From: Escherichia coli
GTDB taxonomy: Bacteria; Pseudomonadota; Gammaproteobacteria; Enterobacterales; Enterobacteriaceae
Assembly (NCBI RefSeq): GCF_003991155.1
Contig: NZ_CP031293.1
Strand: one strand, 5' to 3'
DNA: 64,000 bases
The notes under the pieces are model-generated. The model made no database searches, was not told the DNA's origin, and was given only the letters and a program-made list of their open reading frames with translations. Numbering within the stretch: the first letter of the stretch is position 1; each line of letters begins with the position of its first letter. The position numbers and the translations under genes are program-made. Positions 25,490 through 25,990 of this stretch are shown in pieces.

Positions 25490-25990
25490 ATGAATAACAC
25501 AGACACATTAGAAAAAATAATCAGACACCAAAAAAACAAAGACCCCGCATATCCCTTTCGGGAGCATTTGTTGATGCAACTCTGTATTCGCACAAATAAA
25601 AGAATGCAGGATAATATATCTGAATTTCTGGGGGTGTATGGAATAAATCACTCAGTATATATGGTTCTCACCACATTATTCGCAGCGGAGAGTCATTGTC
25701 TGTCACCTTCAGAGATAAGCCAGAAACTTCAGTTTACCAGAACTAATATTACCCGCATTACAGATTTTTTAGAAAAAGCCGGATATGTAAAAAGGATGGA
25801 TAGCAGGGAGGATCGCCGTGCTAAAAAAATCAGTCTGACATCTGAAGGTATGTTTTTTATTCAGAGGCTCACTCTTGCACAAAGCATGTATCTGAAAGAA
25901 ATCTGGGGTTATCTGACCCATGATGAACAGGAACTGTTTGAAGTCATTAATAAAAAATTACTGGCGCATCTTGATGATGTCAGCTCATAA
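25490..25990 (+). CDS. papX: PapX, MarR-family regulator
   Basis: ORF 25439..25990; start chosen at Met 25490 with GGAGAA RBS; winged-helix MarR-like core; position downstream of papG. Confidence 0.8.
   Translation: MNNTDTLEKIIRHQKNKDPAYPFREHLLMQLCIRTNKRMQDNISEFLGVYGINHSVYMVLTTLFAAESHCLSPSEISQKLQFTRTNITRITDFLEKAGYVKRMDSREDRRAKKISLTSEGMFFIQRLTLAQSMYLKEIWGYLTHDEQELFEVINKKLLAHLDDVSS

What the first reader, a model, noticed from the sequence alone, without database searches (positions are those of the whole stretch)
25490..25990. PapX couples this island to flagellar regulation
The MarR-type gene downstream of papG is PapX-like. PapX homologues repress flhDC, so this island probably affects motility as well as adhesion.
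Basis: established knowledge. Interest (0 to 1): 0.3.

Follow-up and report, generated by a model that had tools for sequence, protein, structure and literature searches.

The report
papX, known fimbrial-operon motility repressor

Summary
Observation confirmed; interpretation supported; nothing new. Window 25490-25990 (+) is an intact 166-codon ORF that begins 313 bp after papG. RefSeq annotates it from 25439, giving 183 aa. Over those 183 aa the protein is 183/183 identical to PapX of E. coli CFT073 (WP_001298062.1), the protein on which the published motility work was done. It passes Pfam MarR and fails the equivalog cut-off of its nearest housekeeping relative, MprA. It carries the PapX-type residues T35, A97 and M103 that distinguish PapX from FocX.

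The window is a pheV-anchored pathogenicity island with an intact pap operon: papI/papB switch with two GATC sites 102 bp apart, then papA to papG, here the class III papG allele. By position, the published papX proximal promoter and transcription start fall at 25308-25346, and that stretch is identical to CFT073.

flhDC is not in the window. A genome that differs from the window at 2 of 49,801 aligned bases has intact flhDC with the PapX site at the CFT073 position.

Caveats: published deletion effects are modest and strain-dependent (117-161% of wild-type motility); papX also has its own promoter, so its link to P-fimbrial expression is partial; no significant fitness effect was seen in mice.

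The parts
25490..25990 (+). papX coding sequence: 166 codons plus TAA. This is the start used by the literature numbering.
   Evidence: ORF. The longer 183-aa translation from 25439, which contains this CDS, is 183/183 identical to CFT073 PapX. Pfam MarR 3.6e-11. Residues T35, A97 and M103 of PMC6246914 fit only this numbering.
25439..25489 (+). 17-codon N-terminal extension used by the RefSeq annotation (183-aa form); probably not translated
   Evidence: RefSeq CDS in CFT073 and FDAARGOS_1284. There is no Shine-Dalgarno sequence before 25439. In the roughly 80%-identical homologues a 1-nt indel puts this ATG out of frame, and PGAP calls a 166-aa product there.
25477..25480 (+). GGAG ribosome-binding site, 9 nt before ATG 25490
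   Evidence: Read from the sequence. GGA is conserved in five of the six sequences of alignment A2; HCM27C has a deletion there.
25308..25346 (+). papX proximal sigma-70 promoter mapped from the literature: -35 TTGTCA 25308-25313, 19-bp spacer, -10 TTTTAT 25333-25338, transcription start A at 25346
   Evidence: PMC6246914 places the 5' RACE start at an adenosine 144 bp upstream of the ATG, with a 19-bp spacer. 25490 minus 144 is 25346, which is an A. No mismatch to CFT073 between 25265 and 25356. The hexamers are conserved in homologues. The hexamer assignment is my own mapping; the simple promoter scan, which allows only 16-18 nt spacers, did not list it.
25347..25489 (+). 5' untranslated leader of the proximal papX transcript
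   Evidence: Follows from the mapped start. Five of the seven intergenic differences from CFT073 lie here: 25357, 25358, 25365, 25366, 25369.
25182..25199 (+). Hairpin just after the papG stop codon; possible partial terminator or mRNA end that limits read-through into papX
   Evidence: Terminator-like hit. Folds at -14 kcal/mol, z = -2.3. The tail is poor in U and the number of scan hits is no higher than chance, so its function is inferred only.
24169..25176 (+). papG, class III adhesin allele
   Evidence: Pfam PapG_N and PapG_C. 57% identical to CFT073 PapG-II. Annotated papG-III in the near-identical genome.
17262..24125 (+). papA, H, C, D, J, K, E, F: the structural and assembly genes of the P-fimbrial operon, through which papX can also be transcribed
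   Evidence: ORFs; RefSeq annotation of the near-identical genome shifted by +1099. Co-transcription of papX with pap is reported in PMC6246914, citing Simms and Mobley 2008.
16102..17054 (.). papI (-, 16102-16335) and papB (+, 16740-17054) with the phase-variation switch between them; GATC sites at 16529 and 16631, 102 bp apart
   Evidence: Annotation; GATC positions. That these are the Dam/Lrp switch sites is established knowledge of pap, not tested here.
32224..33762 (-). Island anchor: tyrosine integrase gene (32224-33489) next to tRNA-Phe (pheV, 33687-33762)
   Evidence: ARAGORN and Rfam tRNA hits; annotation. The core genes yqgA and speC follow.

Best explanation
Window 25490-25990 is papX, the last gene of a P-fimbrial (pap, class III papG) operon on a pheV-anchored pathogenicity island of an extraintestinal pathogenic E. 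coli.

PapX is a small MarR-type winged-helix repressor. It is made from two transcripts: read-through from the phase-variable pap promoter, and a proximal promoter that starts 144 nt upstream of its ATG. By analogy with MarR proteins it acts as a dimer. It binds a 29-bp site about 410 bp upstream of flhD on the core chromosome and lowers flhDC transcription. That in turn lowers fliA, fliC and swimming motility. The island therefore brings both an adhesin and a brake on motility.

Shown here:
- the gene's identity to CFT073 papX
- its position after papG
- an intact operon and phase switch
- conservation of the promoter region
- the target site in a near-identical host genome

Taken from the literature: DNA binding, repression of flhD, and the motility phenotype.

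Inferred: that the same happens in this strain.
For: - Identity: 183/183 aa to CFT073 PapX; DNA identical from 25370 to 26056.
- Family: Pfam MarR above its cut-off. PDB relatives are all MarR-family regulators, best E = 2.8e-15 over residues 19-181.
- PapX-type residues T35, A97 and M103 are present.
- Context: the gene follows papG within an intact papI to papG operon, with a 102-bp GATC pair in the switch region.
- Promoter: the published transcription start maps to A at 25346, and the promoter region is identical to CFT073.
- Target: the sequence TTACGGTGAGTTATTT is present exactly once upstream of flhD in CFT073 and in FDAARGOS_1284, the genome that differs from the window at 2 of 49,801 bases. 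More than 200 bp around the site are identical between the two. A 91-bp stretch around the site is found in 5,405 of 5,426 complete E. coli genomes.
- Function, from the literature: PapX binds the flhDC upstream site. A papX deletion raises flhD, fliA and fliC (log2 fold change 1.2-2.7) and motility in three UPEC strains (PMC6246914). papX was recovered in the EC958 hypermotility screen (PMC5425062). Deleting sfaX and papX together largely removed the pilicide ec240's inhibition of UTI89 motility (PMC4217179).
Against: - Nothing contradicts the identification.
- Limits on the functional claim for this strain: flhDC is not in the window, and no expression or motility data exist for this strain.
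- The published effect is modest and depends on the strain (117-161%).
- Mouse colonisation differences were not significant.
- papX rose in urine without a significant change in papA, so coupling to fimbrial expression is incomplete.
- The 16-nt site sequence is recalled from Reiss and Mobley 2011, a paper not held in the library. Its exact presence near the position given in PMC6246914 (425 bp centre-to-ATG) supports the recollection.
- No near-match to that site (3 or fewer mismatches) occurs in the window. Any auto-regulation or FocX regulation of papX therefore cannot be explained by such a site.
Confidence: 0.93

Rival explanations
1. papX works mainly as a stand-alone regulator from its own promoter. 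Motility repression is then largely independent of whether P fimbriae are being made, and the island location is incidental rather than a true coupling.
For: - A proximal transcription start 144 bp upstream was mapped by 5' RACE, and its promoter region is conserved here and in homologues.
- papX rose in urine without a significant papA change.
- In ST131 strain JJ1887, papX survives between two IS1 copies with papH to papG deleted. A transposon screen in ST131 strain EC958 found that papX affects motility.
- A divergent X gene sits alone among IS elements at pheV in strain Z0117EC0005.
Against: - papX is reported to be co-transcribed with pap, and papX rose together with papA on agar.
- In the window the operon and its phase switch are intact, with only a weak hairpin between papG and papX.
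- Both routes probably operate, so this refines the main explanation more than it competes with it.
Confidence: 0.25
2. The gene is intact but has no measurable effect on motility in this host, because of strain background: other X genes, other flhDC regulators, or low expression.
For: - Effects vary by strain, 117% to 161%.
- FocX represses papX, and the double mutant is intermediate.
- papX and focX expression was low under all conditions tested.
- There was no significant in vivo phenotype.
- Many genomes carry 2-5 X copies.
Against: - The protein and its promoter region are identical to CFT073, the strain with the strongest effect.
- The flhD target region is identical around the site in the near-identical genome.
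- Every UPEC strain tested so far showed a significant effect.
Confidence: 0.12
3. The main role of this X protein is cross-regulation of other fimbriae (type 1, as reported for SfaX), with motility as a side effect.
For: SfaX is reported to turn fimS off and to reduce type 1 expression (PMC4217179, citing Sjostrom 2009). The SELEX work on PapX reported many genomic peaks (PMC3430675).
Against: [quoted passage not shown] Direct binding to the flhD upstream region and flhD repression are the documented activities.
Confidence: 0.07
4. It is a generic MarR-family regulator unrelated to PapX, for example an MprA/EmrR-like efflux regulator.
For: The best NCBIfam model is MprA (7.5e-36).
Against: The MprA score of 123.5 bits is below the 157-bit equivalog cut-off. 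The protein is 100% identical to PapX, and the gene sits at the 3' end of a pap operon.
Confidence: 0.01

Closest known systems
PapX of E. coli CFT073 (pheV island pap1 operon; WP_001298062.1)
   Same: The amino-acid sequence is identical (183/183). The DNA is identical from 120 bp upstream of the ATG to 66 bp past the stop. The position after papG and the 262-bp gap to the annotated start are the same. The promoter region is the same. Both lie on a pheV-anchored island.
   Different: The adhesin gene upstream is class III papG here and class II in CFT073 (57% aa identity). There are seven base differences in the papG-papX spacer, five of them in the 5' leader. Downstream, homology with CFT073 ends at 26057. 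CFT073 has IS remnants and the hly operon there; the window has decayed remnants, an outer-membrane protein gene and a phosphoethanolamine transferase gene.
FocX / SfaX (the X genes of the F1C and S fimbrial operons)
   Same: About 96% aa identity, the same 166-aa length, the same position at the end of a fimbrial operon, and a conserved upstream region and promoter. FocX also represses flhD when overproduced, and SfaX lowers motility.
   Different: Six substitutions, including T35A, A97T and M103T. In foc/sfa operons an extra gene, sfaY, lies between the adhesin gene and the X gene. Deleting focX alone does not change motility, and FocX represses papX. The SfaX effect on type 1 fimbriae has not been shown for PapX.
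MprA (EmrR), the housekeeping MarR-family repressor of E. coli
   Same: It is the nearest curated family by profile (NF008122, 7.5e-36, aligned over residues 23-181). MprA was also found to affect UPEC motility (PMC5425062).
   Different: The score is below the equivalog cut-off (123.5 against 157 bits). mprA is a core gene, not fimbria-linked, and regulates the emrAB efflux genes (established knowledge).
MrpJ of Proteus mirabilis: a fimbrial-operon-encoded repressor of motility
   Same: The logic is the same: the last gene of a fimbrial operon represses flhDC so that adherent cells do not swim. PMC6246914 reference 17 (Li et al. 2001) is the paper that first described repression of motility by a fimbrial gene product.
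   Different: From my own knowledge, not tested here: MrpJ is a different kind of helix-turn-helix protein and not MarR-like, so it is an analogue and not a homologue.

Membership tests
PapX/FocX/SfaX 'X' regulators of fimbrial operons | High sequence identity to an experimentally characterised member | tested here: met
   183/183 identical to CFT073 PapX. 96% identical to a foc-operon X protein.
PapX/FocX/SfaX 'X' regulators of fimbrial operons | The gene lies at the promoter-distal end of a pap/sfa/foc chaperone-usher operon, downstream of the adhesin gene, on the same strand | tested here: met
   papG 24169-25176 (+), then papX 25490-25990 (+). The full papI to papG set lies upstream.
PapX/FocX/SfaX 'X' regulators of fimbrial operons | PapX-type rather than FocX-type residues at positions 35, 97 and 103 | tested here: met
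   T35, A97 and M103 in 166-aa numbering.
PapX/FocX/SfaX 'X' regulators of fimbrial operons | Proximal promoter with a transcription start 144 bp upstream of the ATG, in addition to operon read-through | tested here: met
   Tested at sequence level only. Position 25346 is an A, and the region 25265-25356 is identical to CFT073, where the start was mapped. Promoter activity in this strain is not testable here.
PapX/FocX/SfaX 'X' regulators of fimbrial operons | Binds the flhD upstream site and represses flhDC and motility | not testable with these tools
   Only the target's presence was checked. There is an exact site upstream of flhD in CFT073 and in the near-identical genome FDAARGOS_1284. 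The surrounding region is present in 5,405 of 5,426 genomes. Binding and repression come from the literature.
MarR family (Pfam PF01047) | Winged helix-turn-helix domain scoring above the curated threshold | tested here: met
   43.2 bits against a cut-off of 24.6, residues 69-128 of the 183-aa form. MarR_2 and HTH_27 also pass. Fifty PDB MarR-family chains match at E <= 1e-3.
MarR family (Pfam PF01047) | Homodimer that binds palindromic DNA; often released by a small ligand | not tested
   No structure was predicted. PMC6246914 models the dimer on HucR. No ligand is known for PapX.
MprA/EmrR equivalog (NCBIfam NF008122) | Whole-protein score at or above the curated equivalog cut-off | tested here: not met
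   123.5 bits against a cut-off of 157.

The most novel reading that the evidence does not exclude
The X gene may be a semi-autonomous 'motility brake' module that is kept for its own sake. It has its own promoter. It persists in ST131 after IS1 removed papH to papG. Divergent copies (71% aa identity) sit alone among IS elements at pheV in other lineages. In some lineages the regulator, not the fimbria, would then be the selected cargo. In this window it could act independently of the pap phase state.
Probability: 0.15. Interest if true: 0.3.

Novelty: already known. Interest (0 to 1): 0.08.

Why it matters
It matters little as a discovery. PapX has been characterised since 2008, and this copy is identical to the reference protein.

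The finding is useful for annotation. It confirms that this pheV island, which carries a class III papG, is predicted to lower flagellar expression when the pap operon or the papX promoter is active. That is relevant to the switch between adherence and motility in urinary-tract infection.

One practical by-product is that the RefSeq start (183 aa) is probably 17 codons too long. The 166-aa form fits the literature numbering, the ribosome-binding site and conservation among homologues.

Tried and rejected
- I tried to read the two primary papers, Reiss and Mobley 2011 (PMC3247938) and Simms and Mobley 2008 (PMC2573324). Neither is held, so their results are cited through PMC6246914, PMC3430675 and PMC5425062.
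- I searched the library for the residues Lys54 and Arg127, which I recall as needed for PapX DNA binding. Nothing relevant was found. In the 183-aa numbering the window protein does have K54 and R127, but I give this no weight.
- I searched the window for the flhD-type PapX site with up to 3 mismatches, as a possible auto-regulation or FocX target. There were no hits, against 0.38 expected by chance.
- I looked for a second X gene in the window by tblastn. There is none.
- I scanned for an intrinsic terminator after papX. There is no convincing one: folds of 25985-26140 are no better than shuffled sequence.
- The simple sigma-70 scan did not recover the published proximal promoter, because that promoter has a 19-bp spacer and the scan allows only 16-18. 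The scan's hits inside the CDS are at chance level and were ignored.
- I considered and rejected the MprA/EmrR assignment.
- I did not run the large protein-database searches or a structure prediction. Identity to a characterised protein had already answered the question.
- One Pfam call failed because it included a pseudogene with stop codons, and I did not repeat it.
- I could not find out how many X genes the host genome carries, because the search output lists only the best place per record and FDAARGOS_1284 was not among the rows shown.

Full report
**The observation**

The + strand holds one ORF, 25439..25990, which is 183 aa from the first ATG. This gives a 166-aa, 19.5-kDa product.

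The ORF lies 313 bp downstream of a 335-aa ORF (24169..25176). That ORF matches Pfam PapG_N (2.5e-111) and PapG_C (3e-58). The downstream ORF matches Pfam MarR at 43.2 bits against a cut-off of 24.6, along with related winged-helix models. Its PDB relatives are all MarR-family regulators; the best has E = 2.8e-15 and aligns over residues 19-181. So a MarR-type gene downstream of papG is really there, at the stated coordinates.

**What it is**

A megablast of 25380-26000 against 5,426 complete E. coli genomes found the stretch in 1,388 of them. It was annotated papX in all 30 listed rows, with 100% identity to CFT073, 536, ABU 83972, ATCC 25922 and others.

The CFT073 copy is the pheV-island pap operon gene C_RS16995, WP_001298062.1, 'HTH-type transcriptional regulator PapX'. 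The window protein is 183/183 identical to it. The DNA is identical from 25370 to 26056.

The nearest curated NCBIfam model is the housekeeping MarR protein MprA. Its score of 123.5 bits is below the equivalog cut-off of 157.

Compared with the X protein of a foc operon (strain GN02350, annotated SfaX), the window protein differs at six positions (96% identity). Three of them are T35A, A97T and M103T, the differences that PMC6246914 lists between PapX and FocX. The window gene is therefore the PapX type.

**Context**

The first 49,801 aligned bases of the window differ from E. coli FDAARGOS_1284 (NZ_CP070170.1) at two bases, both in papG. Transferring that genome's RefSeq annotation (offset +1099) gives the following layout:

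| Feature | Window coordinates |
|---|---|
| papI (-) | 16102-16335 |
| papB | 16740-17054 |
| papA, H, C, D, J, K, E, F | 17262-24125 |
| papG-III | 24169-25176 |
| papX | 25439/25490-25990 |
| Decayed pseudogene | 26475-26821 |
| Hypothetical gene | 27555-27923 |
| Outer-membrane protein gene | 28141-28881 |
| Phosphoethanolamine transferase gene | 29063-30565 |
| Integrase gene | 32224-33489 |
| tRNA-Phe (pheV) | 33687-33762 |

The core genes yqgA and speC follow. So 'this island' is a pheV-anchored pathogenicity island, and the operon is intact. The papI-papB spacer has two GATC sites exactly 102 bp apart, at 16529 and 16631. This is the classic layout of the pap phase switch (established knowledge).

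PapG here is only 57% identical to CFT073 PapG-II and is annotated as the class III allele. An identical PapX thus rides with different adhesin alleles.

papX has 38% G+C, against 46% for the window stretch spanning the pap operon (16000-25176) and 52% for the core part of the window.

**Start codon**

RefSeq starts the CDS at 25439 (183 aa). Four observations favour 25490:
- GGAG lies 9 nt upstream of 25490, and nothing comparable precedes 25439.
- The residue numbers in PMC6246914 (T35, A97, M103) fit only the 166-aa form.
- In two homologues about 80% identical in DNA, a 1-nt deletion between the two ATGs puts the upstream ATG out of frame.
- PGAP itself calls a 166-aa protein in one of those homologues.

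**Transcription**

PMC6246914 reports that papX is co-transcribed with pap. It also reports, by 5' RACE, a transcription start at an adenosine 144 bp upstream of the ATG, with -35 and -10 elements 19 bp apart.

In the window, 25490 minus 144 is 25346, which is an A. TTGTCA (25308-25313), a 19-bp spacer and TTTTAT (25333-25338) fit the description. The window has no difference from CFT073 between 25265 and 25356, and these elements are conserved in the homologues. The hexamer assignment is my own mapping.

A hairpin directly after the papG stop (25182-25199; -14 kcal/mol; z = -2.3) could reduce read-through, but its tail is poor in U. No convincing terminator follows papX.

**Mechanism and evidence for it**

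From the literature:
- PapX binds a 29-bp sequence centred 410 bp upstream of the flhDC start codon, and overproduction represses flhD and swimming (PMC6246914 introduction; the 29-bp fragment is also in PMC3430675).
- A papX deletion is hypermotile in CFT073 (161%), F11 (121%) and HM69 (117%). It raises flhD, fliA and fliC by log2 1.2-2.7.
- papX was recovered in a transposon screen for hypermotile mutants of ST131 strain EC958 (PMC5425062).
- In UTI89, deleting sfaX and papX together largely removed the pilicide ec240's inhibition of motility (PMC4217179).

flhDC is not in the window, so I checked the target elsewhere. I recall the core site TTACGGTGAGTTATTT from Reiss and Mobley 2011, a paper that is not held. 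It occurs exactly once upstream of flhD in CFT073, 425 bp centre-to-ATG. A 29-mer starting at the site is centred 410 bp from the older GTG start.

The same sequence occurs once, at the same position, in FDAARGOS_1284. That genome has intact flhDC, and more than 200 bp around the site are identical to CFT073. A 91-bp stretch around the site is present in 5,405 of 5,426 complete genomes, whereas X genes occur in about a quarter of them. The regulator is accessory and its target is core.

**Qualifications**

- The effect depends on the strain.
- FocX represses papX, and the double mutant is intermediate.
- papX rose in urine without a significant papA change, but rose with papA on agar.
- Mouse colonisation differences were not significant.
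- The window holds only one X gene. I could not determine how many the host genome has.
- No near-match to the flhD-type site occurs in the window.

**Comparison and verdict**

This is PapX itself: identical to the reference protein, in the canonical position, on the canonical kind of island. The only additions here are:
- support for the shorter gene model
- the mapping of the published promoter onto the window
- the note that the gene accompanies a class III papG
- confirmation that the target site exists in the closest complete genome

Novelty: already known. Interest: low.

Noticed in passing
window 24485 and 24652 (papG-III): Over 49,801 aligned bases the window differs from E. coli FDAARGOS_1284 at only two positions. 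Both are nonsynonymous changes in the PapG receptor-binding domain: R106 in the window against K, and N162 against D.
   Followed up: partly
window 25439-25489: RefSeq/PGAP annotates PapX as 183 aa from ATG 25439. The literature numbering, the GGAG at 25477 and a frame-breaking indel in roughly 80%-identical homologues all favour the 166-aa form from ATG 25490.
   Followed up: yes
window 16529 and 16631: There are two GATC sites exactly 102 bp apart in the papI-papB spacer, the layout of the Dam/Lrp phase-variation switch. The operon looks switchable.
   Followed up: partly
L010 (E. coli JJ1887, ST131) 2170-4854: papX survives as an orphan between two IS1A copies. papA is frameshifted and papH to papG are gone, so the regulator outlives the fimbria in this lineage.
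   Followed up: partly
L007 6183-6683 and L008 6167-6668: A divergent X-like MarR gene (71% aa and about 80% DNA identity to papX) sits with no fimbrial genes nearby, among IS elements; in strain Z0117EC0005 it lies next to pheV. The copy in strain HCM-27C-1 is frameshifted.
   Followed up: partly
H55, NZ_CP134718.1 897602-898302: PGAP naming is inconsistent. The X gene in what appears to be the same pap/pheV island of a related strain is labelled sfaX (98.6% DNA identity), and other copies are labelled only 'MarR family transcriptional regulator'.
   Followed up: no
window 25991-27554: This is a 1.5-kb stretch without an intact gene after papX. Homology with CFT073 stops at 26057. A frameshifted, truncated 'GTP-binding protein' pseudogene lies at about 26475-26821 (-).
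   Followed up: no
window 15773-15949 (-): Rfam match to AS-pc02, 'antisense to pHK01_099' (53.2 bits against a gathering score of 40), between the IS66 transposase gene and papI.
   Followed up: no
window 28126-30565: Island cargo next to papX: a 251-aa beta-barrel outer-membrane protein (Pfam OMP_b-brl; weak match to the Adr adhesin family, below its cut-off) and a 500-aa phosphoethanolamine transferase.
   Followed up: no
window about 1900-12300: Further island cargo, taken from the annotation of the near-identical genome: VENN-motif pre-toxin fragments (orphan contact-dependent-inhibition toxin modules) and a complete phosphoglycerate transport system (pgtP and pgtC/B/A), followed by an IS66 element.
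   Followed up: no
L004 5260-5345 (CFT073 flhD-uspC spacer): The CFT073 RefSeq record has four ambiguous bases (N) in the flhD upstream region, about 200-260 bp distal to the PapX site.
   Followed up: no
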